Assembly: GCA_023213395.1 (NCBI GenBank)
Contig: CM041465.1
Location: 138,081,741 to 138,145,740, forward strand
Direction: 5' to 3'
From: Cycas panzhihuaensis
Lineage: Eukaryota > Plantae > Cycadophyta
Length of the DNA: 64,000 nucleotides
Positions 39,236 through 64,000 of this stretch are shown here, piece by piece. Made by a program: the position numbers and the translations under genes. Position 1 is the first letter of the stretch, and every line of letters starts with the position of its first letter. A model generated the notes under the pieces. The model had not been told where the DNA came from. It saw nothing but the letters and a program-made list of their open reading frames with translations, and made no database searches.

Positions 39236-39786
39236 AAATGTTCATTCTTGTAATCATTTGTGCTTAAGCAATAAATTGAGACTTTTGCTTTATATTTTTC
39301 TCTCTCTTATTAAATATTAGTATAAATTATTGGTTGTAACCATTGCAAGTGGTGCCAATGTTATGTTTATGGATCTATTTGAAGCAACAAGGCATGGTCA
39401 AGAAGAAGCAAATTAATAAGTATAGCATAAAAGTGAAAACTTTTTCTCCCATGGTGAAATCTTTCGGACCCTCTACTTATTTATACTTTTTGTTTTGTAA
39501 TTATATTCTATAATAATTTTATAAGTCCTATAAATTAGTTGTAAACAAAAGGAGTAAGAAAAACTACCGGCAAGAACTTAAAGTGAAACTCCAAATGGTG
39601 CAAATGGAAGAGTTGTTTAAAGGATTACCAGCAGAAGATATCCCCAGAATGTTGTTATTGATGGAAAATCTAGTGAAACAATTACAGTTGACTATTCCTC
39701 TGTCCCAAGTTATTGATTAGATCAAAGGAGGAGTGTTACAGAAGGGAATTACTAAGAGTTTGAAGTAAATCATACCATCATTTGAT

Positions 39787-40626
39787 ATGGATCCGATGGT
39801 AACTATGACAGTTTTGGGAGAAAAGTTTCTGAGAGTGATCGTTGATAGGGGAGCAGCTGTGAATGTACTGCCCACCTCGACATGGTGGAAGTTGGGGAGT
39901 CCAAAGTTGGAAGCGGCAACCTATTCGTTAAAACTAGCCAATGAATTATTGGTGCAACCTATGGGAAAACTGGCCAACATCAAGGTGGATGTAGCAAGAA
40001 TTGTCGTAAAGATCGATTTTACGATTGTGGAAATGGAGAAAGGAGTAACCCCCTATCTGGCCTTATTAGGGAGACCATGGATATACAAAACCCAATGTCT
40101 CCAAAGTTGGAAAGATGTAACCTTCACCTTGTTAGATGAAGGGAATGAAGTAGTATTATCGATGTTAGGGAAGAATTACATTGAAGTGATACCTGACAAT
40201 GGTTTAAGTACAACCATTGCGAGTGAAGTAACAACTTCTTTGTTCGGCGAAGAAAATCTCTACAATACGGCCGAAGAACCTACCAAATTGATTGACCGCC
40301 AAGAAGCAGAACCGATGTACTTTGGAGAAATTTACAACTCTTTAGATGATGAAAACGGGATGGGATTTGTGGATTATTGGCTACGGGACACATATGAAGT
40401 CAACCCCTCATCCTATAGGTGTAACCTACTTTCTCGGAATGTAACTGAGGAAGTTGATATTAAATCTAAATTTGTTGATTATACGGGTATTCATAATAAC
40501 ATTAAAAACCTAGACCCAAACCCAAATACCCCTTTTAACCCAAACCCTTATCCTAATTCACCTCCTAATACCCCAACCCCTCTAACCCTAACCTTCCCTC
40601 TACCTCCAGTGTGGGTCTTGAGGTAG
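39787..40626 (+). CDS. Gypsy (Athila/Tat-like non-chromovirus) aspartic protease region with an acidic tail
   Basis: VIVDRGAAVNVLP...LKLAN...PMG...IDFTIVE...LLGRPW. An upstream gag-like LQLTIPLSQVI lies at ~39680. Confidence 0.8.
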   Translation: MDPMVTMTVLGEKFLRVIVDRGAAVNVLPTSTWWKLGSPKLEAATYSLKLANELLVQPMGKLANIKVDVARIVVKIDFTIVEMEKGVTPYLALLGRPWIYKTQCLQSWKDVTFTLLDEGNEVVLSMLGKNYIEVIPDNGLSTTIASEVTTSLFGEENLYNTAEEPTKLIDRQEAEPMYFGEIYNSLDDENGMGFVDYWLRDTYEVNPSSYRCNLLSRNVTEEVDIKSKFVDYTGIHNNIKNLDPNPNTPFNPNPYPNSPPNTPTPLTLTFPLPPVWVLR

Positions 40627-41210: not shown

Positions 41211-41566
41211 GGTGGAGCAACTTACCAGCCGAATCAGCTGGTTGTACCATAGTGTGTTGCATGAAGTTGAGGCAAAATCGAATTACCTTAATATCGGAAC
41301 ATGATTCAGTTTGGTATGTAACATAAAATACAAAAAAAAATTATTAAAAAACAGAAAAACAACCGTAACTCATATCATACAAATCAGCAATATGGTGAAG
41401 CATGGAGGAAAGATATATCATCATACAGAAAATTGAGGGAAGGTTGAACAAAACAAAGCACCAATAGATGAGGATTTATTAACCAAGAATGGCGACAAAG
41501 CGGCGAGGCGAGGCAGAGCGACCTTAGAATAGAGAGGGGGAGGAATACCCCAAATTTTAAATTTTT

Positions 41567-42476
41567 TGTTGAGCAAGGATGCTCAACCCAATCATGTTGA
41601 CTCAGGATAGATGTTGGGACATATTGTGAAACATAGGCCTTGAGGAAGACGGAATACAGGCTGTATTGACTAAAGGAATACAGTGCGGACCGTCTGCAGG
41701 TATGCACAAGGAAGCAAGGAAAAACTAGCATTACGGGTACATATGACGGTGCATACAGGCAGATGCACCACATATACATACCAGTAGCGGAATAGAACCG
41801 AACGGAAGCGATACACATGATAGTACGAGACCAGTGGAAGCTCGAAGGCGCTGACGTGCGTGCGGATGTCTGGACCTAATGAAGACATTAGTTAAAGTGC
41901 ATAACTAATGATTAAAGTGAAAGGGTACCTTGGTGACAAAAGGTATGGTTATGACTTTGGGTCATAACCTTTCATCCAAAAGGCATCAAAGGGACATATT
42001 TAATGATGCTTTGAGGACCATTCCAGTGTGAGAGCCGAGTGATTCAATCCCATGACATACTCTCGAGGGTGAGAGCTGATTATCACGGGTACACAAAGGT
42101 GTAAGAGCCAGTACGTATGACAGCCATTTGGAGCATCATTATATGATAAGTACCATCTGGGTATGCATATGTAACAGAAGGATTGTATGCTGCTGGAATG
42201 CTCAGGAATACATTCCAGCCTCTGTGTAAATTGAATTGATTACTTAATAAAAGGAAGAGTTACGTGGAAAATGATGTATTCTTAGTGCTGTGATGATGAT
42301 TTGCTGAGTATGTATTGATTTCTGTACTGTTGTGTACCATTCCGTGAAATATATGTGAAATAGATGTGGAATGTATGTGAATAACCATGTTGACAGTATC
42401 CTGAACTAGACTATAGCACTATGTAACCTTGATAAGTGTATTGATCTCACAAGGGTGTGGAATCTATAAGTCAACA
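41567..42476 (+). repeat. Putative LTR of the 39.5-41.2 kb Gypsy derivative
   Basis: Inverted ends TGTTGA...TCAACA and a purine tract AGAGGGGGAGGAA about 20 bp upstream. No partner LTR or TSD was found. Confidence 0.4.
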
Positions 42477-46164: not shown

Positions 46165-48682
46165 TGTTTCCCAGCTACTAGGAATGGACTCGAGATGCAT
46201 CAACGCAGGTTTGTTCAGGTATATTTTCTTACTTTTCTTGCCCATGCTTGATTGAGGTTATTTAGAGTAGGTTGCTTGACATATGCCTGCCTGCACACAT
46301 TGCTTTTCTACTTGTTCATTATGCATGTGCCTACGGCACGCCATCAGCCTATGACGACTCACAACGGGGGCATTCCTCAGTGAATGCTACACCCCGTATG
46401 GCGTACAACCACCCACGGTGTCCCCACGGTCCTCCGGGATGTTTCTGTCAGTTTTATTTGTTCTTGTTGCGATATGTTACTTATGTTGCAGTCCTTCCTA
46501 AGTCCAGTTTAACCCTTAGTTAGGACTCTTTGCATTGTTTTGGGTACTTGCCCATTGCCTGGGCACTCCCTCAGCTACTCTAATTCATATTTGGCTTTGT
46601 TTTTGCCTCAAAACCTGATTTTCCTGCTCTTTTTTCTCTTTTTTTCTTTTTTTAGTTTCGGTGTCTGCGATAAACTAAGCGGTACCGCAGAGTTTGCCGT
46701 GGTACGACTGTTTGAAATTTAAAAAAAGAGAACCACGCAACAGTTTTCATTTTTTCGTGAAACTGTCGCGTGGCATTGATTGATTCGAGTTGCCTTGACA
46801 TCCCCAATGTTCACCTGCTATGAACAAGGGATAAAGGGGATTTTGCTCCCCATTTTTCAAATCTTTTTGGCCATTTTTAAAACTTCCAAGGAGAATTCCA
46901 AAGATTTTGCACAGGAAAAACTCATAGAAACAAACAACTTCATGCACAACAACTGAAGAAGAGGAAGTGAGCTGCCATCAATTTGGATTTTGAGGCCATT
47001 CTTTGCCCCCTGCTTTCCAATGACTCCATTCTTCTTGTAGGTGCTCAGAGATTCAAGGCTCTTCTTCAACCAAAAAGCTGTCCCAAAGGTCTACCCCAAA
47101 GCTCCAAGCTTGCAAGGAGCTTCCTTCAGCCATACCATTGCAGGAATTACTCATAACCAGCCTCTATTTGTCACATATTGCTGCTACTCTAAGTGGCAAA
47201 ATACATGCTTAATCTCCCATACAAGGTACTCCTGGTTTTTTACTTGCAACTTCTTGGTCTTTACTTGCAATTCCTTGGTTTTTACTTGCAACTTTCTTGT
47301 TTTTACTAGCAAGTAGTCCATTCATTTCTTTTTCTGTTTTGCCTCTTTTACTTCTAAATGAAGGTGATCCTATTTAGCCACAACTCTCCCATAGTGTTGT
47401 TCTAGACTAGGGGTACTTTCCTGGTGTTTCCTTGGAGCCCCTCCATTTTCTCTAAGCTCTCTTTTTCTCTTTCCTTAGTCAGCCAGTGCAAGGGCACATA
47501 CACGAGGATTCGAGGGAGGTAGGCGGGGTTCCGTCCCCCATTGTTGTCCTTCTCCCCAAGGGTTCCATCCCTTGTCCTTTTCCCCTTGCCATACACGCTT
47601 TCTCAAGGAATGAGCTAAAGAAGTTTAGGGGATTTTGTCAGGGCATCCCGACCGACCCAAGATAACTCGCCTCCACCTTGTTACCACCTAGTGTTTCCTT
47701 CCCGAACTCCGTGGAGTCTTCCCGTGGGTGAGTTAGCCATCCTGAGGCTATGCTCAGTTCCATTTCGTGTGTTTGTGGTATATGGCAGTGTGAGTTTCTT
47801 GTACACTTTTATTTCATTTTGCTACATTCTGATGTATAGTTTAGATCTTACTTTCGGTTGATTTTAGTCTATGCATATACGTATATTTCTTGGTAGATCT
47901 TGTGGCCTATCTTCTGAGAGGAAGGTGGCTTTCTTACTTGTTTGCAGGTTCATGCATTGGCGAAAGTGATACGCGGGACGAGCCCATTGCCGGTTAGCCC
48001 CCGCATGGTACTTCTCTTTCTTAGTTTCAAGCTTCTTTTCAGTTCCTTTCGTTTCATCTAGTTTTGCATGCTCAAGGGGAGGTAAGTAGACCCCTCTACC
48101 ACCATCGATCGGCGTTGCATGCACAGAGAAAGGAGAAAGAAGGAGCGCGACTTAGAGAGACAAGCCACATCTCCACTCAAACGCCAGATCCAGGTATTCC
48201 CCTCGCTTCTCGCGTGTTTCCTTTTGTGCCATTTCCTTTTCATGCATTTGCCTGAATAGATAGGAAAAGATAAAAGAACATAAAGGATAAAAGGGGAAAA
48301 CAAAACATTTTCTTGCATTATTTTTCTGCTTTATATAGCATAGTATAGATAGCCCATTTGTATCATACCCTTTCGTCACACCTTTCACCATATCTGCTTG
48401 CGTATTAGATTAGTTGCCCCTTGTCTTCGTTGCCTTCTCATTGCCATTGAGAAGACGTAATGCGCGAGGTGTTTCCTTTCCTTCCCGGCCATCCGAAGGG
48501 TAGGAAGGCCTTGTTTTTGCACGGCTACCTGGAAGCAACCAGGCACCTTGCAGTCCCGAACCTGCACTCCGGCACATGGACGTCCTGCGAGGTGGGATCC
48601 TCGCTGTCTGGCTTAGTTAACATAGTGCATTCTTATATTTGTTTGCTAGACGTAGGATCACCGCCCCGTAGCGAGCGTTTCA
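46165..48682 (+). repeat. 5' LTR (2518 bp) of the Tat element
   Basis: TGTTTCCCAGCT...CGTTTCA, homologous to 60422-61528 and 61529-64000. Candidate TSD GACTC at 46160-46164. Confidence 0.9.
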
Positions 48683-48683
48683 C

Positions 48684-48701
48684 TGGTGACCATACTGGGG
48701 A
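48684..48701 (+). promoter_or_regulatory. Primer-binding site, tRNA-Arg-like
   Basis: TGGTGACCATACTGGGGA 1 bp after the LTR end, resembling the TGGCGACTC..CTGGGGA PBS of Ogre/Tat elements. Confidence 0.7.
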
Positions 48702-48956: not shown

Positions 48957-51900
48957 ATGGAAGGTTACCCGTCCGATTGGGCTTACCATGCCATGACCTC
49001 AGGAACTCAAGAGTTCCCCGCATCTATTCCGGAATCCGCCCATAAGGGTGATGATTCCATCTACTATCCAGATGACCATTCCCATCCTAATGACTTTCGC
49101 CCTTCCGCCCATGCAGTGGAAGATTCGGCTCCTCATGAGACTCACCATCCCACAGGTGAGCCTTATGAGGAGCGTCCTGAGGGATCCCCTACGTTTGAGA
49201 TCCCGTCAACTTCGTATGGCTACGAGGATACCCCTCCTGCCGATATAGTCAAGGCGATTAGCGAGTATTTCTGAACAACTCACTGCCAACTGCATCCTAG
49301 ATGGTTTGAGGAAGTGTTGCGTAATGTAGCATCTTCCTCATCCATCCCTGCGCCTTCTACCACGATCGATGCTCTTGCCCGCGTGCACTCGTCCTACGCC
49401 ACGTCTACCCCGGCTCCCAGGGCAAGTGTTGTGCCGCCCGTTCCGAGTCATAGTCCTACTTCCTTAGGACCCATCCATGGCATGTCCTTTCCCCAACTCG
49501 GGGTTAGCATGCCATTTCTGAGCCAAACACATGCGCTGCCTTTGAACGTGGCTCATGCGTCCCCTAGTAGGCCTCGAGGTCTTGCTAGTGCCGCCGCCGT
49601 TAACTATGTAGGATCCACTCCTACATACGTTCAAAGCTCTGCTAGTGGTCCTTCCCTTTACGTGCCCCCAGGTTACGCATCTCAACCTTGGGGGCAAGCT
49701 AGGGGAAACCATCTTCCTATTTATGGGGTGGACCCATTGCACCCATATGGAGTTGCGCCACCTACGGGTGGCCCATATGGGCAAAACCTGGTCCCTCACC
49801 CGTTGTTCCCGTCATCTAGCGCAACTCCGTTCTTTGCGTCATCGTGAGGGGCATGCCTCCTTTCCGGGCGTTTACACGCAACCCCTTTCCAACAAGGGTG
49901 TTTCCCCAAGGAGGATGGGTTTACCACCCCATCATTCCTTTCTTAGATCATCGATCCATTAGCCCAAGTGAGGACCACGTCATTTCATACACTATAGGTC
50001 GGCGCCATTATGCGTTGAGGCGCTAAGGACCAACTGCGCCTCACCCTCACGAAGTTCCCAAATTCGGCGGAACTTTGTCGCATAGACCCAAGAGCATGTC
50101 TGTGGTTTCTCTATGGCGTGCATCGATTATTGGGCTTACGACCATATCCTTATGAAGTTATTTCCGCGGTCCTTGCAGGGCAACGCCCTCAAGTGGTTTT
50201 ACCGCCTTCCCGCTCATTCGATCTCTTCATTCCAGCAATTGGTGGATGAGTTCGTCAACTATTTTGACGTAGCCCGCCCATTCGAAAGCGGAATGAAGGC
50301 GCTTCTGTCGCTTAAACAATGTCACGATGAGATGAATCGTGACTTTGTGTGACGCTTTCATGATCTCCTTCACTCTACTAAGGCCACGTTGCCTGAAGAG
50401 TTGAAGCGAGATCTCTTCGTCAACGTATGTGGAAGTCCTCAAGATGGGGGCAACCATGTGTGATTCCACGATTACGAGGTGCTTGGCATTGGAGGCCATT
50501 AAGATCCAGGCTGGACTCAAGAAACCTCCTAAGCCCTACATAGCGTCGCGGGCGCCTCCTCATGAAAACCAAACCTTCGTAGCCTGCTAAGTCTACCTCT
50601 CATCCGACTGAAAGGACCCTAGATCCCCTTACCTCCAATATTCACTCATTTGAGTGCACGATGAAGGAGCTAAAACTCCAGCCTCCTTCGTCGCCGACCT
50701 CCCATAAACTAGTTCAGCAGGCTTCTTGTGCGATGCCCCCTAAAGGGCGTAACACCCAACCTTTTCAAGCAAGGAGGATCGATCCTCCCCTTGAGAAGAG
50801 GTGGTGTTCCATCCACGGGGAGTGTTTCCATGATGATGCGTGTTGCCGGGCATAGCACCCACGCGACGCCCCACCACGTGACTCGTCCCCTAGGTGGGCA
50901 TCGAGGCCTAACCTCAATCAATCCGTTCATAGAGACCCATTCCCCAAACATGGGGAACGTGGTCGTGGTGTTCAGCAAAGGAATAATCAGAATTGGGATA
51001 GATCCCCCGATTCTTGCCCTTCGCATGGTAGAGGGAAGGGTGTGTGAAGGTCAGCTTCCCTTGGCTCCCACGGCCCGTGCTCCATCACCTCCGCGGTCCC
51101 GTAACAAAGGAAAGAAGGTGATACAAATGCTTCAGACCACTCCTCTTTACGCGTTGACCCGGTCTCAAGTCGCGAAGGAGGCAACAAGCGCCTCTACGTC
51201 TGCCTCGCAGCTCCATCCCCCTCTGGAAGCCATTCCTCTGGAGATCCCTGCACTTCCCAGAAGCGTTCCCGTCCACCCCAGTAGATTCGACTTTAGGAGA
51301 GCCCTTACCCAACCCACAGGGAGGGGTAAGCCCTTCTCCGTAGTCGAAGAGCTTCTCACTGTGGCTGCCGGGATGTCCATCATGGACGTCTTGAGAAGTT
51401 GCCTTGAGTAATGAGCGCTCCTTTTGAAAGCTCTAGGATCGAATGATACGTCTGTTCACGCCTTGGGCACAACCCAAAGCGGCGAACCCGTTATCTCCTT
51501 TGATCCCAGAGATCTTCCTGCATCTAGTGGAAGGGGCATGATGGAACTTCCCTTTCACCATCACCATAGATACTCCCGATTGTACGTTGCGAAAAACTGT
51601 CGTGGACAACGGTTCTTCCGTCAATGCCATGACTTTGCGTGTTATGCAAGAGCTTGGCGTCTCTGCCTTGGAACCCGTTCCATGGCGCTGTTAGGGTTAT
51701 GACGGTACCGAGAAGACTCCCTTAGGATCTGTCTCGATACCCCTTACCCTCAAGGACAAGACTGTCATTACTGACATCGTCGTCCTTGATGTTGATGTCG
51801 ATTACAACTTGCTTCTGGGTCGACCATGGCTTGACCAAATGGGAGCCGTGTGTTCTACCCGTTGGGGGCAACTTAAATTTGTCCATAACGGGCAAATGAA

Positions 51901-54900
51901 AGCTGTCTCCCACGAGCGATCGCTCGCCAAACTAGTTAGGCCTTCCGCCCAAGCAAGCCATGACCATACGAAGGGAGACAAACGTCCTTCCGACCATGTC
52001 TCGGCTTGCTCCATTGGAATCCCTGATTCCTCTTACCGAGAAGAAGGTCCCACACCTTCTTCTCCTAGTCTGATGCGTTTCGCCCCCATTGGTGTCGGCA
52101 GCTATGGGTATCTCGCCGTGTTTGATGACGATGGGTCCCATAGCGAGGATGAGGATCGTCCTCACCTGGTTTCGTTCCTCCGCACTAGTGTGGGGCATCC
52201 CCCTAGTCCTAGATTTCCTCCTATGACCCCTTTTGTCGTAGAGCCTGGTCATTTTCACATGTCACATGACATTGTGCATGTTGGGCATCACATTCCCAGC
52301 TCTTCCGTCCCATCACCTCCCGTAGGTGATGATGTTGAGAGTTTCCTCTTGCTTTTTACGAGGGACCTCTCCTTGACTCTCCTTCAGAGTCTCCTAGGGA
52401 TGATGGGCAGTTTTCAGGCCATACCAGTCCTATCGCTCCCATGCTATCCCGCGCCTCGTCCATTCGAAGTTAGGTCATCCGTGGGATGGACTACTTCGAA
52501 GACGATGAGGCTTTGCTGGAGCACTTAGCAGGTTCCATGCCTAGTTTGCCTCCTGGTCACCACAAGCTTGGCCACCAGAAGGTCTTAGTGATTGGGTCTG
52601 CGTTAGCCGACCCAATCCCCTCTTCCATTTCTTCCCTTCCGGTTGACCTCACCCCCATTTATTTTGAGGAGGGGAATGCCATGTGCACAGGGGTAACTCA
52701 GGACATAGTCCTTGCCCCAGACAAGGTCATCAAAGTAGGAGTGAAATGTACTCCTGACGAAGTGAGGGAATACACCTTCCTGTTTCAGGAATTCTGCGAT
52801 GTATTTGCATGGGACTACTCGGATATGAAGGGCATTGACCCCTCCATCATCGCGCATAACCTTACGACCTTTCCTGACACTCGCCCCGTGCGTCAGAAGC
52901 AACGCTCCCTTCACCCGAAGCTTTCAGCTGCTGTTAAGATGGAAGTTGAGAAGCTTCTGGAGGCGGGACTCATTTCTTCTATCGATTACCCTAAGTGGGT
53001 GTCGAATATCATTCCCGTTGCTAAGAAGAACGGGACCATTCGTATTTGTGTCGATTTTCGCGACATAAACAATGCTTGTCTTAAGGACAACTTTCCTCTT
53101 CCCTTCATCGATCAAATAATCGATCATACGGCCAGATTCGAAGTTATGTCCTTGATGGACGACTTCTATAGCTATAACTAGATTCAGATTTCTCATGAAG
53201 GCCGTCATAAGACGGCCTTCACTATGCCATGGGGTACCTTTGCCTACAAGGCAATGCCCTTTGGTCTTAAGAATGCAGGGGCCACTTAGCAAAGAGCCAT
53301 GCATTTTATCTTTCATGACCTCATCAACAACACGTTGGAGGTCTTCATGGATGATATGATGGGCCTTTCTCGTTCCAGAGCCCATCATCCCTCTGACTTG
53401 CGCGCCATCTTCACAAGATGCCGCAAGTACCATGTTAGTCTAAACCCGCTGAAATACGTATTTGCCGTCACTTCAGGCAAACTCTTGGGTTTCCTCGTGT
53501 CCCAGCAAGGAATCCAAATCGATCCAGAAAAAGTCAAGGCAATCCTTGACATGCTGCCACCTAGGACCCAACTACAAATTAAGTCGTTTCTAGGCAGGCT
53601 TGGTTTCTTGAGGCATTTTTTGGCAGATTTTGCCATAAACGCCAAGCCTCTAACAAACCTATTGAAGAAAGGAACCCCTTTTGTCTGGTCAGACAAGATC
53701 CAAAAGGCCTTCGTAGGGCTCAAGGAAGCTCTTGTTTCCACCCCTACGTTGGCACCTCCTTGCTTTGATAGGCCCTTCATCCTCTACACCTCATTGGCGG
53801 CGAATCCACAGGCGCAATGCTCGTGCGGAGGGCGATTCGAGGCGGGAGGGCCATCTATTTCATCAGCCGCACTCTCGTTGCCGCTGAATTAAACTATCCC
53901 CCCGTCGAAAAGGAATGCCTCTCCTTGGTCCATGCGACCAAGAAGTTTAGGCATTACTTGCTCGACAATACAATCAAGGTGATCGTTCAATCTGATCCCT
54001 TGCGTTACTTGCTTACCCGTTCAAATTTGACAGGTAGGGTGGGTCGTTGGGCCATCCTGCTTCAAGAATTTGACTTGCAAGTTGTCAATAGGAAGTCGAA
54101 GAAGGGAATGATAGTAGCTGAGCAATTAGCTGACGCTGCCATCCCCAACGCGAGCAGCGTTCCTGTTGACGACTCTTTCCCAGACGAGTCTATTATGACC
54201 ATCAGTGATGCTTCCTCTCACCCACTCGTCGATAGCGAGTGGTATGACGACATTGTGCGATATTTGACCCAGCAAGAATATCACCCTGAAGCTAGTAACA
54301 AGGTTAGGTTGCGTATCTGCGCCACTGCTAGACAATACTTCCTCGTAGATGAAGTGTTGTACGAGAGATCTTTCGACGGGATCCTGCTCTGCTGCGTCGC
54401 TCCTCACGAAGTGGACCAAATACTCCACAAATGCCACCATGGCATTTGTGGAGGCCACTTTGGGGGCCAATCCATGGCCTAAAGGATCCTTCGTATAGGC
54501 TATTACTGGCCGTCCTTGTTTAAGGATGCCCACACTTGTGCTCTTAGATGTCGGCATTGTCAGGGGCACGCCAACGTCTCTCACATACCTTCTGAGGCGT
54601 TGCACCCTATCGTGTCTCCGTGGCCCTTTTCTCAATGGGGTTTAGAACTCATTGGGGCTATATCACCGCCATCTCAACATAAATATGTCTTAACCACTAC
54701 TAAATACTTCACTAAATGCGTAGAGGCAATCCCCCTGTCTACTACCCCTGGCAAGACGATAGCCACCTTCATCTACCAGCATATTATCTGTCGTTTCGGG
54801 ATCCCAGATGTCCTAATTATGGATAATGGGACTTACTTTTATAATAAAGAGATGGACGAATTGTGCGAGAAGTTCAAGATCTCGCATAAGACGTCATCCC

Positions 54901-55471
54901 CTTATTATCCCAAGCGAACAGGCAAGTTGAATCTTTCAACAAAACGCTCGTTGGCATTTTGAAGAAAATCGTCGCCCAGTCTCAAAGGGACTGGCATATC
55001 CAACTCCCTTCCGCTCTATGGGCTTATCGCACCTCCATCCGCACAACTACCGGAATGACCCCATTCTCGTTAGTCTACGGAACCGAAGCGATACTCCCCT
55101 TGGAAGTGGAGATCCCTTCTCTTCAGGTTTCCCTTCGAGGCCTCATTGACGAGGAGTCTGTTCGTCAGGCTCACCTCTTAGACCTTGAAGCCCTAGATGA
55201 GAAGCGCTTAGCAGCTTATCAAGCGAACCTCACTTCGAAAGCCTGCTTGCAAAGGACACATGATAAACGTTTTCGTGCTCATCCTTTGTGTCCCGGGGAC
55301 CACGTCCTCAAATTGGAGTACCTTTACGATCGCTTGGCCAAATTCAGGCCCAAATGGGTAGGCCCCTTTGTCGTTCTTGAGAGCCTCGATAACAGCGCGA
55401 TCGCCACCTTAGACGGCTTGGAATTTGAGAAAGCGATCAACAGAAAATTCCTCAAGAAATTCTACGCGTAA
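48957..55471 (+). pseudogene. Tat gag-pol: Pro-rich N-terminus, gag core, CHHC knuckle, PR, RT, degenerate RH, INT
   Basis: LFPRSLQGNALKWF, WCSIHGECFHDDACC, VVDNGSSVN...LLGRPW, RICVDFRDIN, MPFGLKNAGAT, VFMDD, NYPPVEKECL, CH...CGGH...CRHC, IICRFGIP...DNG and RPKWVGPF. Scattered stops and frameshifts. Confidence 0.92.
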
Positions 55472-56163
55472 TCTTTCTGCTCTTTTCTTTGCCATGCTCC
55501 GAAACGAGCCTAAACTACCATTTTAAATTGTTCCCATTCCTCCCAACCACGGGTAGGATGGCAATTTAAGGTGGATTTTTGGTTCTTTTTCTGATTCCTC
55601 CCATGGAACCTGCATTCTCATGCGCTTTTAGGAACCTTTGTCCTCCTATTTGGGCATCCCCCAACCAGGACGACGTTGTGGAGTATTGTCACTCCCCTCT
55701 CGTGCCTGTCGTTTCCTTCGCATATTCCGCTATGCTCCCCTGTGGACGTGTATGTCGCTCTATTCCTAACCTCACACCTTTAGAAAAAGCGATGTATGTC
55801 GCTCTATTCAAAAAAGTGGTCAATGGGAAATTCCTCAAGAAGTTCTACGCGTGATCTTTTCACCCTCTTCCTTGTCTTGCTCCAAAACGAGCCTAAACTA
55901 CCATCTTAAATTGTCCCCATTCCTCCCAACTGCGAGTTGAATGGCAACTTAAGGTGGATTTTTGCTTCTTCTTCTGGTTCCCCCCGTGGAACCCGCGTTC
56001 CCGTGTGCTCTTGGGAACCTTCGTCCTCATATTTGGGCATCTCCCCAACCAAAACGACGCTGTGGAGTATTGTCACTCCCCTCTCGCGCCTGTCGTTTCC
56101 TTCGCATATTCCGCTATGCTCCCCTGTGGACGTGTATGTTGCTCTATTCCTAACCTCACACCT
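55425..56163 (+). repeat. Tandem duplication (~383-bp period) of the integrase end and 3' UTR
   Basis: AAATTCCTCAAGAA.TTCTACGCGT recurs at ~55445 and ~55828, and the copies are colinear to CCTCACACCT (55770 / 56153). Confidence 0.93.
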
Positions 56164-56382
56164 CTCGATCGCCTCTGCTTACGGTGGATGTGTGTGCTCC
56201 TGTTAGACATATGGCCATACATAGAAGGAAACACATGCATCTTACAACAAATTTCTTACAACAAAACATATTTACATTTACAACATACAGAAAATATTCA
56301 TTTGCAAAAGTAAATCATACATGCTATCTCTATCATACATGATACACACCATTTCATGTCAAAATGGGGTTCCAATTATCCC

Positions 56383-56385
<3 letters not shown>

Positions 56386-56428
<43 letters not shown>
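56386..56428. repeat. (TA)n microsatellite
   Basis: About 21 perfect TA units. Confidence 0.97.
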
Positions 56429-56430
<2 letters not shown>

Positions 56431-56494
56431 AAATGTCATGGTACATCATGTGTGTGGGAAGCCGGGATCCTTGCAGGGGGGGGTACAATCATGT

Positions 56495-58447
56495 AAGCCT
56501 ACATATGACCCCCTGGAGGCCCGTTCTTTCTCGTCAAAACCATATGCATGTACATCTCATCCTGCTGCATCACGACCTAGGGTCCCATCCCGATGCATGT
56601 GATCCCTCTCCTGGGGACCACATCCCTGCGAGGCTCCTCCTGGGCCTCCACGAGCTACCTGCCTCGCTCTCCTCATCCCGAGGTTGTCTCAAGGTCGTAG
56701 CCGCTGTCTGTGTGTGGGTCTGGCTCCTGCTCGACCTCGAGACCACTTGTGCTACCAGCTGGTCATAGCGGACCTAGATGCGATCCCTCTCACCTCGGAG
56801 TCCCTCCTCTATGGCCCTGAACTTCTCCTCCGACGCCTTAAGGCGCTCCTCTAGGACTGCTAGGCGAGTCTTTGCTCCTGCGTCTCCTCTGGCTCGCTCG
56901 GCTCTCGAGGCTGAACCCGTCAGTGACTGTCCCGCTCACCCCTGGTCATGTCGAGCTCTCGCTGCAGCTGTCCCCGGAATGCCATGTGCTCCTGGGTCTC
57001 TGCATCCCAGATGTCTCTGACCCTCGTCAGTGGGGCGAACTCCTGCATGTAGGCTCCTACCGATCTTGGCGCATCCTCCGCCTGGATGGGTGGTTGCCCC
57101 TCTGCGTAGACCTGAGGGAACAGCTCCCTCACCATGGCCTCGACCAGCCTCTGTACCTCTACTACTCCTATCAAGGCAACATGCCATGTGTCAGTGTACA
57201 TACTCACTGCATATCATAATGGAATGAAATAAAAAATCTATCTAGATGTCAAACGACTAAGGAAACGGTTAGGTCTCACATCGTGGGTGCGGATCCTGCT
57301 ACTCGGGCGACATCCTCATCTCTTGGCCCTCCGCCAAGCTGCAGGGGCCTCATCCTCTAGCATGTCCTCTTCCTCTGCCTCGTCTCTGGCAGGGACTAAC
57401 TCGACCCTCACCTCTCCGGATCTCCTCATGATCCATAGCCTGCGCCCCCTGGTCTCGGTCGTCCTGCTTGTCTCGGTAGCTCCTGATGGGCCTGCTCCTC
57501 CTATGGCAGTCTCGGATGGTCCTGTTGCGCCCTCTGATGACTGCGATGGGCCTGCCTCTCCTACAAGTCATGATGGACCAGCCCCATCTCCCCCGTCATC
57601 GCTGTCATCATCCCCATCATCGTCGTCGTCATCACTGTCATCATTGATGGGTGCTCCTACTCCTCCTGCTCCGTCATCACTCTCCCACCTCACTGCTCTG
57701 TAAGGCTCTGCTATGAAGTTAGTCAGAGTGAGGAGGTCGAGTGATGTCGCATCAACTGACCGACGGACATGGGCCTGGTCCTCTGTCCCTCGGAGCCTCA
57801 TCTGCCACCTATGGACCATCGGGGCCCACCTCGCTATAGGGAATGGCCCCCCTGCCGGTGCCACTGCCGCAAAGTGATCAAAAAACCAGCACTGTAGCAG
57901 CGTGCTGTAGGAAAAGCCTCCTCTGCCTGATCTCCTGATGGTGTCTAATTGGGCGACAAGGTTCACTTAGCCCAGGTGGCCCGATCCATCCTCTCACCGG
58001 CCTCACCTGCCGTAGCTGCGTCCACCCATCCTCGAGGATCTCCACAGTTCTATTCCGGGAGATCCAGAACAGAATGCATAGTAGAATGAGCTTCCTCGCG
58101 GGAATCCACGACATAATCTTGTTTGGAGGGGCTCCCCTCGCTCCCACTGTCATCCCGTGAGGCTGAACGCCTCCCATGTCTTGCCTCGGTCTTGGCGGCG
58201 CCCTCGGCATCCACGGGTCTCCCTGCGGTACCCCTAGGATCACTTTGATATCTCCTAGGGTGATGGTAATGTCGCCTATCTGAGGCAAGTGGAATACATG
58301 CCTCCTCCTATCCTAGTATGACACTATGTCAACGAGGCCGTGATCGATCTGTTGGGGTCTTGAGGGGCCTTGTATGGTGCATCTCTTTAGTCGCCTTGTC
58401 CTCTGAGTCGCCATCTCCGGGTAACTTTCGAGAATGGGCATCGACAT
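56495..58447 (-). pseudogene. Antisense extra gene of the Tat element: Plant Mobile Domain (PMD) + acidic/AGPS-repeat linker + coiled-coil-like tail
   Basis: QIDHGLVDIVSY*DRRRHVFHLPQIGDITITLGDIKVILGVP and STLLQCWFFDHF match the PMD motifs W...HTFHL..GE.TITL.DV..LLGLP and LLQ.W.WEH. A candidate GT-AG intron lies at 57279-57207. Confidence 0.78.
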
Positions 58448-59143
58448 TTCGCGATTATCCGTGATAACTACTTGTAGTCAGTTGAAGCCAGTCAAAGTCA
58501 GTCTCCTAGCAGTCATCTAGGCCCCTAGCTATCTGTCTAGATGTCTTTTCTGGTTTCAAATTTGTTTGGCCCTTTTTCTATTTTCTAATTTTACGCTGCG
58601 TCTGGCTCCAAATTAGTAGTACCGCTAAGTTTGGAGCGGGTCCCGCAGCGATCCTGGCTTCCAGCGATCCTGCGGCCAAGATCGCGGATCTTGCGATCTT
58701 GGCCGTGACTCTGCATGGCAACCCCTCTAAAAAGGGGGGTTTTAGCCCTGAAAATCAAAAATTTTTGTGGTGGACCCCACGTGGAGCCCACCGGGACCAG
58801 GGCTGCCTAATGCCCAGGTCCTCGCCTCTTACCGGGTCCAATTCGGACTCCGAGAGGCCTCCAATTGCCCATAAGGGGCATAAAAAGCATTAAAAATCAA
58901 TTTAATAAGCAATGAATTTTAAACTTTGAAATGATGAGGGTTGCGTGAGATCCACTCACTGGGTCTGGCCTGACCATCGCCATCTCATCTCTGGGGTTGT
59001 GACGACTGTCTCCTCGCTCGAATCCGACGGTCGGATCGTCTCATGCGTGCCTCCGAAGTCGGGTAGCGCTCCGCGTTGTAAGGAATAGGCTCTGGTTTAG
59101 TACGAGAGCCGGTGAAAATGAATCCAATTTTCATTAGTTTTCC

Positions 59144-59151
59144 TTATATAG
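59144..59151 (-). promoter_or_regulatory. Candidate TATA box (CTATATAA on the minus strand) between the PMD and aRH genes
   Basis: An isolated TATATAA in a GC-rich spacer, ~700 bp upstream of the PMD ATG. A GTGAGT donor-like site lies downstream at 58959-58954. Confidence 0.4.
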
Positions 59152-59681
59152 CCGGGGGCTCCGATGAGCACTTCTCCCGTTTCTAGCTCCGTGACAGTCG
59201 TTGGGACCATCTTGTTGCCCTGTTAGCCTTTACCTTCTAGCCCAGTCACCCATTGTGCTCTATGGATGCTCTTTTTGCCCTCTCTCGCAAGGGCATTTAT
59301 GGTGCCTCATTATCGCACTTTTGCTAGGGCCCTTTTTCATTGTTTTACGCGCTACTCCCGTGCATGCCCGAGTTTACACTCGTTTGGCCCGTTTCGCTGC
59401 CCTGGACTCATTTTTGCAGCCCTTTCTCACCCGGGTCCCCGAAATGCTCCCACAGTGCAGGGGCATGTTTTGCTTTCCAAAGTAGCCTTGGGCACCCCAG
59501 GGCATCTTTCCTCCGCCCACGCTCAGCCAATGGACGAATTGCTTGCTCTCACCCTTGGGTAACCTCATTGTTAGGTCCTCCTACCCTTCTTGGCCATACT
59601 TCTCCCTTTTGCACTTACTATTTGAGTCTTTACTTTACTTTCATTTGCCATTTGCTTACTACCAGAGCTTAGTACTCAGTC

Positions 59682-60075
59682 ATGTCTCTTCTCATTTTTA
59701 CTGATCGTGGAAGTCGCGGCAACCCCGGGCCTTCCGCCGCTGCGTGGATTCTTCGCAGCTCCTCTGGACACGATTTCTTGCGTTCTGGGGTCTTTCTTCC
59801 CGAGGCTACTAATAACGAAGCTGAGTATATGGCCGTTATTGAAGCCCTTACCGATGCTCTCCGTTTCCATTGCAGGTCCATTGTGTTGTTTTGCGATTCT
59901 CAGGTTGTGGTGTCCCATCTCACCCAGGTTTACCAGGTGCGATGCCCCCCTCTGAGCCTGGCGTCTGCCAGTCTCTTACAACTTGTTCTTGTCGGTGGAT
60001 ATTGACATATCCCGGGCACCTCAATGTTGGTGTGACCTCGTCCACCTCATCCTTGGCGCCGCCTCCCTATTCTGA
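59682..60075 (+). CDS. Stand-alone archaeal-type RNase HI (aRH); 3' part frameshifted as given
   Basis: IFTDRGSRGNPG...ATNNEAEYMAVIEAL...LFCDSQVVV, with HIP.HLNV..D in a shifted frame. The D, E and D catalytic residues are present. Confidence 0.9.
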
Positions 60076-60421
60076 ATAGCCCCTTAGGCTTTTGCACGGC
60101 CCGTGCCCAAGTCTCTAGTTCTTTGGTTAGATGTGCTTGCTCTATTCTTTGGGTGCCCTCCTGCTTCGTTGCATTTGAGCGGAGGCATCCCCTTTCTTGC
60201 TTATTTCGATTTCGGATCGATGTTAGGCGATGTGTGGCGACCCTCGTTGTCCTCGTCTCATCTCCCTTGTCCACGCATTACGCCATGACACTCGCCTACG
60301 CCACAGGTCCCGTCTTGCTCTTTATTGCTTTTATATATATATGCATGTGCTACTCATATTTTTATTATCGATTCGCCATCACATTACGCTTACGGCGGTG
60401 AGGCTCTCTTTGCCGAGGCGG

Positions 60422-61528
60422 TGTTTCCAAGCTCTTGGGAATGGACTCGAGGCGCATCGCGGGTTTGTTCAGGTATATTTTCTTACTTTTCTTGCCCATG
60501 CTTGATTGAGGTTATTTAGAGTAGGTTGCTTGACATATGCCTGTCTGCACACATTGCTTTTCTACTTGTTCATTATGCATGTGCCTACGGCATGCCATTA
60601 ACTATGGCGACTCTGGGGGTATTCCTCGATGAATGCTACACCGTGTATACAACCACCCACGGTGTCCCCACGGTCCTCCGGGATGTTTTTGTCAGTTTTA
60701 TTTGTTCTTGTTGCAACATGTTGCTTATGTTGCAGTCCTTCCTAAGTCCAGTTTAACCCTTAGTTAGGACTCTTTGCATTGTTTTGGGTACTTGCCCACT
60801 GCCTGGGCACTCCCTCAGCTGCTCTAATTCATATTTGGCCTTTGTTTTTGCCTCAAAACCTGATTTTCCTATTTGTTTTTCTTTTTTAGTTTCGGTACGT
60901 CTGGCGGTAAACTAAGCGATGACATGAGTTTGCGATCTGTGAGTTTCTGAGATATGTTGTTTGAAATTTAAAAAGAAAACCATGACGATTTCCGTTTTTA
61001 GTGGCTGGTGGTGATGATTGATTGAGTTGCCCTAACATCCCCAACATTCACTGCTTTGTGAGCAGGGGATAAAGGGATTTGCTCCCATTTTTCGGATCTT
61101 TTTGGCCATTTTAAAACTTCGAGGAGAATTCCAAAGATTTTGCAGGAAAAACTCACGAGAAAACAACTTCATGCAAGCGAAGAAGGAAGTGAGTTGCCAT
61201 CATTTGGATTTTGCGGGCCATTCTTGCCCCTGCGCTTTCCTGACCAACTCCATTCTTCTTGCGGTGCTCGAGAGATTCAAGGGTCTTCTTCAACCAAAAA
61301 TGTCCCAAGGTCTACAGCTCCAAGCTTGCGAGGAGCTTCCTTGACCATACCATTGCGGGAATTACTCATAACCTTGACCTCTGTTGTCACCTATTCTTCT
61401 TTGCTCCAAGTGACAAAATACATGTAATCTCCCATACAAGGTACTCTGGTTTTGCTTTGACTTCTTGGTCTTTACTTGCAATTCCTTCATTTTTACTTGC
61501 AACTTTCTTGTTTTTACTAGCAAGTAGT
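60422..61528 (+). repeat. First ~1.1 kb of the Tat 3' LTR
   Basis: Colinear with 46165-~47317, ending at CAAGTAGT. Confidence 0.9.
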
Positions 61529-64000
61529 TATTTCCCAGCTACTGGGAATGGACTCGAGACGCATCGGCACAGGTTTGTTAAGGTATATTCTCTTACTTTT
61601 CCGGTTTTGGTATGATTAAAGTTATTCAGAATAGTTTGTTTGACATATGCCTGCCTGCATGCATTTGCTTGTCTGCTTGCTCATAATGCATGTGCCTAAT
61701 GCCGCCTTGACTATGACTCACCGGGGCCATTCCTCGTGAATGTTACACCGTATGGCGTCTGACCACCCATGGTGTCTCCACAGTTTCTCGGGATCGTTTC
61801 TGCCAGTTTACTTATTCTTGCTGTGGCATTTCTTTTGTGTTGCCATCCTTTCTAAGTCAAACTCGATTCTTAGTTAGGACTTTTTGGGTTGTTTTGGGTA
61901 CTTGCCCACTACCTGGGCCTTCCCCCAACTGATTTGCCTCATGATTAGCTTCAGTTTTTGCCTTAAAACCTAATTTTATTGCCTATTTTTCTCTTTTTTT
62001 AGTTTCGGTACGTCTGCGGTAAACTAAGTGAGTCTGCATGAGTTTGCGTGATGCTTGAGATTCTTGGTAATGCAGTTCAAAATTTAAAAAGAGAACCATC
62101 TCGATTTACGCATTTTTCACTGGCTAACTGCGTGGCTCCGTACGATTGGAGGTGCCCCAACGTCCCCAACGTTCACTTGTTGTGAACAAGAGATATAGGG
62201 ATTTTTTTTTCCATTTTGGGGCATCTTTTGGCTCATTTTTTGAAACTTCTAAGAGAAACTTTCAACCATCATACAAGGAAAAGACACAGAAATCAGAGGA
62301 CTTCTGTCGGCGGTTAGGCCGGAGGTGAAGTGGTGCCATCTGGTTGTAGGGTCATTGCTACCGCCTACTGCTCTCCACAACAAGCTCCATTTTTCCCTAC
62401 AAGTGCTCAAGGATCCAAGAGATTTCTTCACTCAAAAGGCTACTCTAAGGATCAACTTTCAGCTCCCAACTTGCATGGAGTTTCTTCCATCTACACTCTT
62501 GCAAGAATCACTCAAAACCAACCCCTAGACATTGTTTGTTGCTGCTGCTCCAAGTGGCAAAGTGCATGCATAACCTTCTCATCCAAGGTACTTCTTGTTT
62601 CTTATTTTTTTCTTGCTTTTTGTTTTCTACTTGCTAACTCATTTCACTCACTTGCATTCACTTTCTTTGCTATTTCCCTTGTTGTTCAATGAAAGTGATC
62701 TTAGCTAGTTATGGCCCTCCCATAGGGTTGCTCTAGATTTAGAAGTATTTTCCTATGTTTCTTTAGGACCGATCCATTTCCCCTAAGCTATCTCTTTCAC
62801 CTTTTCCTGAGTCAGTCGGTGTAAAGAGGTTCATACGAGTGTTTGAGGGAGGTAGGCGGGGTTCCGTCCCCCATTGCTGTCCTTCTCCCCAAGGGTTCTG
62901 TCCCTTGTCCTCTTCTCCTTTACTATCCATGCTTTCTTAGGGAACAGGGCTAGGGAAGTCTAAGGGATTTAGTTTGAGCTTTCCGTTTGGTATAGGTAAC
63001 CCATCACTACCCGTCTCCATCTTGTTACCCGCTAGTTTTCCCTTCCCGAAACTCTGTGGAGACCTCCCGTGGGTGAGTTAGCCATCCCGAGGCTATACTC
63101 AGTTCCATTTAGCATGTTTTATGGTACATGACGGTGTGAATGTTTCTTGTACACTTTTGTTTCATTTTGCTACGTCCTAATGCATAGCTTGAGTTATTTA
63201 GCTTAGTTGATTTCGTTTACATACATATACATATATCTTTGCCATACTCTGTAGCCTCTCTCCTGAAAGGAAGGTGCTCTCTACACTTGTTTGCAGGATC
63301 GCGTTGGAGGAAGTGGTGCGTGAGACAAACCCGCTGCCAGTTAGCTCCCACACAGTATTTCTCTTCTTTAGTTTCGAGTTCCTTTTTTGTCCTTTCATTT
63401 TATCTAGTTCTTGCATGCTCAAGGGGAGATAAGTGAACCCCCTTTACCACTGCCGACTGACATTGCATGCGCAGAGAAAGGAGGGAAGGAGCGCAACCTA
63501 GAGGGAGAAGCTGTACTTCTACTCGAATGCTGGATCTAGGTATTCCTCTCATTTCGTTCGTGTTTTCCTTTTACGCTATTGTTGTCTTTTCTTTCGTTTG
63601 TCGAAATAGATAAGAAAAGATAAAGGAACATAAAGAAAAAGGAAAATAATCTTTTATTTACATTTACTTTCTTGCATTGTTTCCTTGCTTTACATAGCGT
63701 AGGTATAGAAGACCCGTTTATATTGTACCCCTCAACCACACCTTGCTTCACACCCGTTACACGTTAGATTTGTTGCCCCCTCGTTGCCTTCTCATTACCT
63801 TGAGAAGCGCCTTGTGAGTTCCCTTTCCTTCCCGGCCATCCGAAGGGTAGGAAGGTCTCGTTTTTGCACGGCTGCCTGGAAGCAACCAGGCACCTTGCAG
63901 CCCCCGAACCTATGCTCCGGCGCACGGACGTCCTGCGAGGTGAGATCCCCGCTACCTAGCCTAGTTAGTGTAGTTTTTATATTCCTTTGCTAGACGTAGG
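61529..64000 (+). mobile_element. LTR of a related-subfamily Tat element inserted in the 3' LTR (about 25 bp short of its end at the window edge)
   Basis: Restarts at TATTTCCCAGCTACTGGGAATGGACTCGAG and is colinear with the whole 5' LTR up to TAGACGTAGG (=48648-48657), but is visibly more diverged than 60422-61528. Confidence 0.85.

What the first reader, a model, noticed from the sequence alone, without database searches (positions are those of the whole stretch)
56495..60075. Divergent PMD / stand-alone RNase H cassette in the 3' region of a Tat retrotransposon
Seen: between the INT stop (55471) and the 3' LTR (60422) sit an antisense PMD gene and a sense aRH ORF, head-to-head across a ~1.2-kb GC-rich spacer with one clear TATA. 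Known: PMD proteins (Arabidopsis MAIN/MAIL1) act in TE silencing and gene expression, antisense PMD extra ORFs occur in some Gypsy elements, and Tat elements carry aRH. Inference: this is a two-gene accessory module pairing a chromatin/anti-silencing factor with an RNA:DNA hybrid nuclease, expressed separately from gag-pol. Each part is known, but I do not recall this combination and layout being described.
Basis: partly seen in the sequence, partly recalled or inferred. Interest (0 to 1): 0.8.

Follow-up and report, generated by a model that had tools for sequence, protein, structure and literature searches.

The report
Retrotransposon with swapped, spliced accessory genes
A broken copy of an abundant plant jumping gene carries two extra genes back to back, an RNA-DNA hybrid nuclease and a likely anti-silencing DNA-binding protein; both are known from this lineage, but here their order is swapped, and both are predicted to be made from spliced RNAs.

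Summary
An antisense PMD gene (58447 to about 56570) and a stand-alone archaeal-type RNase H (aRH, ATG 59682) sit head-to-head in a decayed TatIII-like LTR retrotransposon. Both genes are frame-broken in this copy. The spacer is not GC-rich for the element, and its TATA faces PMD.

The gene combination is published: antisense PMD with a post-integrase aRH (Ustyantsev 2015) and aRH in its own ORF (Biryukov 2023). I did not find this order in print. In 27 related loci aRH starts 98-228 nt after INT, and in 16 of them PMD lies downstream, tail-to-tail. Here aRH lies 4.2 kb away, beyond PMD. Sister copies tile this layout in four runs, and aRH variants are mostly synonymous.

New points: a splice acceptor abuts the aRH start in both layouts. 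The PMD gene has an intron, followed here by a coiled-coil exon. A relative's PMD model best matches the anti-silencing protein VANC21 (Z 6.7, next 2.9). No RNA was available. The scan noted spliced antisense retrotransposon genes earlier in other genomes.

Verdict: new variant of a known kind.

The parts
46165..48681 (+). 5' LTR, about 2.5 kb (end inferred from the PBS-like site and from the second LTR copy)
48683..48700 (+). PBS-like site, 4 differences in 18 from the PBS of related loci L004/L007/L049 (tRNA-Arg type, label recalled)
50086..55471 (+). broken gag-PR-RT-native RH-INT; native RH lacks 3 of 4 catalytic acids (motif positions recalled); no aRH inside pol
55430..56163 (+). 383-bp tandem duplication of the INT end and the following non-coding DNA (87%)
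56570..57206 (-). predicted PMD-gene exon 2, frame-broken, with a heptad helix (L-L-F-L-I-L at every seventh residue, about 56870-56745); 3' end uncertain (56570 to about 56495)
57207..57279 (-). predicted 73-nt GT-AG intron; acceptor ranks 1 of 286 minus-strand AGs; GC 0.34 against a mean of 0.58; donor not in the top 10 of 105 GTs
57280..58447 (-). PMD-gene exon 1: PMD domain (about 58447-57690) and an acidic Gly/Ser/Asp linker; stops and frame breaks in this copy
58448..59681 (.). 1,234-nt spacer between the two start codons, 50.4% GC; possible 5' UTR intron of PMD at 58959-58468 (weak: ranks 7 of 105 and 10 of 286)
59143..59151 (-). TATA box, full consensus on the minus strand only
59559..59665 (+). 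predicted 107-nt intron in the aRH 5' leader; acceptor ranks 1 of 186 plus-strand AGs in 55472-60421; donor weak by score (98 of 765) but in a block with no listed variant among sister copies
59682..60075 (+). stand-alone archaeal-type RNase H; three acidic active-site residues align to solved RNases HI; in-frame stop 12 nt upstream of the ATG; frame broken after about 59947
60422..61528 (+). 3' LTR, first 1.1 kb, interrupted at 61529 by an LTR of a related family

Best explanation
This is the 3' accessory region of a decayed copy of a high-copy TatIII-like LTR retrotransposon, in which a stand-alone RNase H gene lies beyond an antisense PMD gene instead of beside integrase, and each gene is likely made from its own spliced RNA. 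Shown: gene content, order, family-wide presence, and selection on aRH. Inferred: the native RNase H in pol has lost its catalytic residues, so the free aRH likely supplies hybrid-cleaving activity in trans during reverse transcription. It is likely translated from an mRNA whose last intron ends just before its ATG; in this layout the RNA most likely starts in the spacer. Also inferred: the PMD gene is transcribed from the minus-facing TATA, spliced, and gives a PMD + acidic linker + coiled-coil protein. That protein would act like VANC, binding the element's own DNA and relieving silencing. The two genes likely do separate jobs; their head-to-head position came from moving one module.
For: aRH and PMD hits. 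Native RH degenerate. Contigs from 4 of 4 runs (4 organism labels) cover 30 of 30 bins of 56440-60420, 30,381-53,633 contigs each, with share running on into unlike sequence 0. In four further runs no variant row falls on the aRH ATG, the upstream in-frame stop, the acceptor AG or the local donor. 12 of 20 variants in the aRH frame are synonymous, against 33% expected for transitions (p 0.012, pN/pS 0.33). In relatives, 22 of 23 in-frame aRH ATGs have YAG 0-6 nt before them, against 16% of all ATGs. 12 of 12 examined PMD genes have a GT donor at the same codon position and an 82-110-nt AT-rich intron, with AG intact in 11. dN/dS in relatives: PMD exon 1 0.07-0.12, exon 2 0.07-0.22, aRH 0.11-0.27, INT 0.08-0.26. 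A relative's PMD model matches VANC21 at Z 6.7, rmsd 4.5, 185 aligned, the only chain of 48,161 with Z>=5, next 2.9. PMD-VANC structural likeness is published for MAIN/MAIL1 (passages).
Against: Nothing here shows transcription or splicing. The TATA is weak on the aRH strand and the local donor scores poorly. The splice scores come from my own crude consensus scorer. PMD hits are below the gathering cut-off. The link from this family's PMD to the relatives' PMD is modest (hhalign probability 45-68%, E 2e-4 and 5e-5). The VANC match rests on a relative's model of mean pLDDT 57, and Z below 8 can be a common arrangement. Selection on PMD was measured only in relatives, with dS of 0.8-2.0, near saturation. 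One antisense frame shares the wobble positions and gives 11 of 20 synonymous. How a free aRH would enter the particle is unexplained.
Confidence: 0.55

Rival explanations
1. Same genes, but aRH is made env-like: the LTR-driven RNA is spliced from a distant 5' donor to the acceptor before the aRH ATG, and the spacer promoter serves PMD only.
For: The TATA has full consensus only towards PMD. Relatives keep the acceptor at the ATG with only 98-228 nt after INT and no conserved local donor. Strong donors exist at 48082 and 49156. Splicing to env-like ORFs is reported for barley Bagy2 (PMC7264820 passage).
Against: Here a local donor-tract-acceptor unit of 107 nt sits in a block with no listed variant in sister copies. 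The search for a conserved distant donor in 7 relatives was inconclusive.
Confidence: 0.25
2. One reading: a co-regulated two-gene module in which PMD and aRH act together on chromatin, for example clearing R-loops at the element to oppose silencing.
For: Head-to-head layout around one TATA with a palindromic core. VANC-like fold of a relative's PMD.
Against: 16 of 16 relatives with both genes located have them tail-to-tail. The dead native RH (general in Tat with aRH, PMC10508981) already explains why aRH is kept.
Confidence: 0.1
3. aRH is the C-terminal domain of Pol, joined by splicing or read-through, as drawn in 2015.
For: In relatives the acceptor is in phase 0 with aRH in 21 of 22 cases, and in 5 of them it lies 6 nt before the ATG. 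PMC4408406 places aRH at the Pol C-terminus.
Against: The donor-like sites at the INT end are phase 1 or 2, or are plain Val codons. Here 4.2 kb and a shared in-frame stop separate INT from aRH.
Confidence: 0.07
4. The layout is a one-off rearrangement, a nested DNA transposon or an assembly artefact.
For: The LTR pair has 60 indel events against 73 substitutions, which suggests read errors in the assembly. PMD also occurs in MULEs.
Against: Overlapping sister contigs tile PMD, spacer and aRH. There are no terminal repeats around the cassette apart from TA-microsatellite matches.
Confidence: 0.03

Closest known systems
Tat lineage III / REXdb TatIII / structure #3 'post-integrase' (Tat H conifers, Tat I Cycas and Ginkgo); PMC4408406, PMC6317226, PMC10508981, PMC13468544
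   Same: GAG-PR-RT-degenerate RH-INT-aRH order; aRH in a separate ORF; antisense PMD eORF in the 3' region; size range; PBS type.
   Different: PMD lies between INT and aRH, head-to-head with aRH, which is 4.2 kb from INT. A coiled coil is present (reported for lineages IV and V, not III). Splicing of either gene is not mentioned in the passages read.
Related elements fetched here (loci L001-L080, RT 45-60% identical where measured)
   Same: Same two accessory genes, acceptor at the aRH start, intron in the antisense PMD gene.
   Different: Order INT-aRH-PMD, tail-to-tail. The intron follows the PMD domain directly. A separate RT clade (99/98).
VANC21 of the VANDAL21 MULE (PDB 9LNJ/9LNK; PMC5735166) and host PMD-C proteins MAIN/MAIL1/MAIL2
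   Same: Best fold match for a relative's PMD domain; TE-borne accessory gene; predicted coiled coil.
   Different: Retrotransposon-borne; 11-12% identity; no binding or anti-silencing data; the fold was not recovered for this family's own protein.
Antisense 3' ORFs of maize Grande (gene23), Retand (TRP28), Boty (brtn)
   Same: Antisense accessory gene between pol and the 3' LTR; an own internal promoter is shown for Grande.
   Different: Different protein family; no divergent sense enzyme gene described.

Membership tests
TatIII / Tat structure #3 | Ty3/gypsy order PR-RT-RH-INT between LTRs | tested here: met
TatIII / Tat structure #3 | archaeal-type aRH after INT and nowhere else in pol | tested here: met
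   the only RNase HI-profile hit in the element is 59682-59954
TatIII / Tat structure #3 | degenerate native RH | tested here: met
   catalytic motif positions recalled
TatIII / Tat structure #3 | antisense PMD eORF in the 3' region | tested here: met
   scores below the gathering cut-off
TatIII / Tat structure #3 | RT clusters with REXdb TatIII or Tat H/I references | tested here: inconclusive
   no named references on hand; grouping with the INT-aRH clade has only 72/40 support on 125 columns
TatIII / Tat structure #3 | tRNA-Arg PBS and length 12.7-17.3 kb | tested here: inconclusive
   PBS-like site 14 of 18 identical to relatives; length about 16.8 kb only if the interrupted 3' LTR was full size; ranges
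TatIII / Tat structure #3 | 5-bp target-site duplication | not testable with these tools
TatIII / Tat structure #3 | gymnosperm host | not testable with these tools
   organism labels are coded; inferred from the published distribution only
Ogre / Retand | aRH between RH and INT | tested here: not met
   native RH runs into the INT zinc finger in one frame, 53772-54482
VANC-type anti-silencing factor | VANC/PMD fold | tested here: inconclusive
   relative's model Z 6.7-7.0 to VANC21; sister-protein model too poor
VANC-type anti-silencing factor | sequence-specific binding to, and demethylation of, its own element | not testable with these tools
   needs experiment
MULE insertion carrying PMD | terminal inverted repeats, TSD and transposase | tested here: not met
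   (no TIR or flanking direct repeat of 14 nt or more beyond TA runs); no transposase hit among the ORFs scanned

The most novel reading that the evidence does not exclude
A gymnosperm retrotransposon lineage runs a bidirectional internal promoter that makes two spliced accessory mRNAs: a free RNase H that complements the dead RH of Pol in trans, and a VANC-fold, coiled-coil anti-silencing protein. It would be the first retrotransposon VANC-like system, and would answer how a solo aRH ORF is expressed.
Probability: 0.25. Interest if true: 0.8.

Novelty: new variant of a known kind. Interest (0 to 1): 0.5.

Why it matters
Biryukov and Ustyantsev (PMC10508981) state that aRH outside pol raises the question of how it can work, and PMC13468544 calls its status controversial. 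A conserved acceptor at the aRH start in two different layouts makes this directly testable with RNA. A spliced, selected PMD gene with a VANC-like fold would extend transposon anti-silencing factors from DNA transposons to LTR retrotransposons. It also bears on whether host MAIN/MAIL genes came from Gypsy elements, a question left open in PMC5418596. The single copy in the window is a decayed fossil; the interest lies in the family.

Tried and rejected
No genome is held for this window, so full-length copies could not be counted. No RNA holder was listed; this says nothing about expression. The word-index search with a PMD piece found nothing among longer proteins. The aRH search returned 37 RNase HI-like proteins at 33-45% identity, none a close sister. 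The ESM Atlas gave no result. Foldseek gave no match at E<=0.001. The model of sister protein P0089 was poor (pLDDT 47) and matched nothing at Z>=5. The 111-aa ORF 59227-59562 has no Pfam hit, and a shared in-frame stop blocks its fusion to aRH; rejected as an aRH N-terminus. The search for a conserved distant donor in 7 relatives gave two Gly-Lys/ambiguous sites, inconclusive. No repeated motif stands out in the spacer beyond four GATCGC sites at 58648-58693. Zero depth at 59967-60004 is not read as absence. P0019 shares a contig length with P0038 but looks like an ordinary prokaryotic RNase HI; coincidence.

Full report
Setting. The finding lies in a Ty3/gypsy LTR retrotransposon starting at 46165. 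Pfam places gag, RT, native RH and INT in broken frames from 50086 to 55471. The 5' LTR matches 60422-61528 at 83.7%. A second, related LTR starts at 61529 and matches 46167-48656 at 72.6%. I therefore read the LTR as about 2.5 kb and the 3' copy as interrupted (inference). A PBS-like site at about 48683 differs at 4 of 18 bases from that of related loci. The LTR pair shows 73 substitutions and 60 indel events, while an internal 383-bp duplication shows 43 and 1. Some frame breaks may thus be assembly errors.

aRH. The ORF from ATG 59682 matches RVT_3 (E 2.9e-11) and RNase_H (E 6.4e-11). It aligns best to RNases H/HI 4e19, 3u3g, 4h8k and 3hst, with three acidic active-site residues in place. 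An in-frame stop lies 12 nt upstream of the ATG. Contigs of four public runs show no variant row (40% threshold) at the ATG, that stop, the AG at 59665 or the GT at 59559. After 59947, 93-245 contigs per run leave this copy, so the broken C-terminal part is peculiar to it or to the assembly. Of 31 variant rows, 20 fall in the aRH frame and 12 of these are synonymous (expected 33%, p 0.012, pN/pS 0.33). The rows are not independent events, and some are near-fixed differences of this copy. The native RH lacks three of four catalytic acids (motif positions recalled).

PMD. Two minus-strand pieces match PF10536 collinearly but below the cut-off. A sister protein from a public assembly, P0089, is open across the stretch where this copy changes frame twice (three pieces at 46, 76 and 96% identity) and matches PMD 38-179 at E 1e-4. 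After an acidic linker, the 73 nt at 57279-57207 drop to 34% GC; the lowest non-overlapping window elsewhere in the gene is 45%. They end in the top-ranked acceptor of 286 (my own crude scorer). The next exon holds a six-heptad helix. I infer a spliced PMD-acidic-coiled-coil gene.

Spacer. It is 1,234 nt at 50.4% GC, ordinary for the element. The one TATA has full consensus on the minus strand. The AG at 59665, 17 nt before the aRH ATG, ranks first of 186 in the 3' region and 14th of 711 in the element; a local donor at 59559 ranks 98 of 765.

Family. Four runs with four organism labels cover 30 of 30 bins of 56440-60420 with 30,381-53,633 contigs each, and almost none run on into unlike sequence. 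No record spans the whole stretch. With, eight runs and six organism labels were laid. There are no terminal repeats around the cassette beyond TA runs.

Relatives. A scan with an alignment of three related Pol proteins returned 80 loci; this is a sample of a different clade, not of the window's. In 29 loci the INT end was mapped. 27 have aRH starting 98-228 nt later; one contig ends at INT and one has an insertion there. In 16 of the 27 an antisense ORF family lies downstream of aRH, none lies between INT and aRH, and the other 11 have at most 1,007 nt left (9 of the 16 were used to build the profile). Two of nine such ORFs hit PMD, weakly. Their profile aligns to P0089 over 122 columns (probability 45%; 68% with window pieces added). 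So the relatives are INT-aRH-PMD, tail-to-tail, and the window is INT-PMD-aRH, head-to-head. An RT tree of 39 rows and 125 columns puts the window with P0038 (98/97), apart from the clade holding all 18 INT-aRH loci included (99/98); joining the two has only 72/40 support.

Splicing in relatives. 22 of 23 loci with an in-frame aRH ATG have YAG 0-6 nt before it (16 directly; 18 distinct contexts; background 860 of 5,269); 4 loci have no such ATG. In the 12 loci taken from the motif hits (two identical; L049 and three false hits left out), the PMD gene has a GT donor at the same codon position and an 82-110-nt intron of 18-24% GC, with AG intact in 11. The loci share descent, so the counts are not independent. 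dN/dS is 0.07-0.12 for exon 1 (6 pairs), 0.07-0.22 for exon 2 (7), 0.11-0.27 for aRH (8) and 0.08-0.26 for INT (8).

Fold. An AlphaFold2 model of one relative's PMD exon (mean pLDDT 57) had no significant Foldseek match, but VANC21 stood out among the rows. VIA-align gave Z 7.0 on Foldseek's list and Z 6.7, rmsd 4.5, 185 aligned in the wide search, next 2.9. The likeness of VANC to host PMD-C proteins is already published (PMC13547354 passages; bioRxiv 2024.09.27.615353 abstract and passages). VANC's anti-silencing action is from PMC5735166 (abstract). The sister protein's own model was too poor to test.

Literature. PMC4408406 (passages, section 6, supplementary legends) describes gymnosperm lineage III with aRH at the Pol C-terminus and an antisense PMD eORF at the 3' end, and gives a coiled coil for lineages IV and V. 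[quoted passage not shown] PMC6317226 (passages and one supplement row) gives TatIII as 12.7-17.3 kb with eORF-3'R in 18%. PMC13468544 (passages) calls the ORF status controversial and has no hit for 'splic' or 'antisense'. Also seen as passages: PMC11963269, PMC5418596, PMC9289625, PMC7264820, PMC8365987, PMC7156037. Nine searches showed no paper placing PMD between INT and aRH or reporting splicing of either gene. Figures, REXdb's element table and subscription papers such as Steinbauerova 2011 were not visible and may hold it.

Verdict. The feature is real and family-wide. Its parts and their co-occurrence are known; the swapped order, the predicted splicing and the VANC-like fold of a retrotransposon PMD were not found in print. 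All expression and function steps are inferred. New variant of a known kind; interest 0.5.

Noticed in passing
window 61529-64000: A second LTR of a related family (72.6% to the 5' LTR) starts directly inside the 3' LTR and runs off the window; nested insertion or solo LTR.
   Followed up: partly
window 55430-56163: 383-bp tandem duplication that repeats the last codons of INT; 39 transitions, 4 transversions, 1 indel.
   Followed up: partly
window 46565-47317 vs 60820-61528: Indel events are about as many as substitutions between the LTRs, which suggests unpolished long-read errors.
   Followed up: partly
window 30069-34414 and 10970-12679: Decayed RT-bearing element ending in an RVT_3 RNase H (34025-34414, E 1.4e-11), probably a plant L1 with RNase H; a 64% identical partial copy lies upstream.
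   Followed up: partly
window 7650-10028/23436-25848 and 14756-15444/26112-26789: Two old copies of another repeat family (65-74%), not classified.
   Followed up: no
window 39769-40623: Retrotransposon-type aspartic protease remnant (E 2.7e-4); a weak RrnaAD hit on the opposite strand at 41387-41875 is below cut-off and probably chance.
   Followed up: no
L003, L004, L014-L018, L021, L050: Synonymous divergence differs by module: PMD 0.8-2.0, INT 0.4-0.8, aRH 0.25-0.42 (two different reference loci). PMD may be exchanged or evolve faster, as VANC genes do.
   Followed up: no
L001, L003, L004, L016, L021, L022, L050: An acceptor-like AG lies 10 nt (about 25 nt in L001) before the PMD ATG, with CACC or TACC next to the ATG, pointing to a 5' UTR intron as well.
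   Followed up: partly
window 58648-58693: Four GATCGC sites clustered in the spacer, of 13 in the element; a possible binding-site array.
   Followed up: partly
window 56387-56428 and 60332-60352: TA runs with ATGCATG-like motifs follow the 3' ends of both accessory genes and form a weak inverted match 3.9 kb apart; possibly 3' end signals.
   Followed up: no
window 59227-59562 (+) and 59676-59975 (-): A 111-aa open frame in the spacer with no Pfam hit, and a 99-aa antisense shadow frame over aRH.
   Followed up: partly
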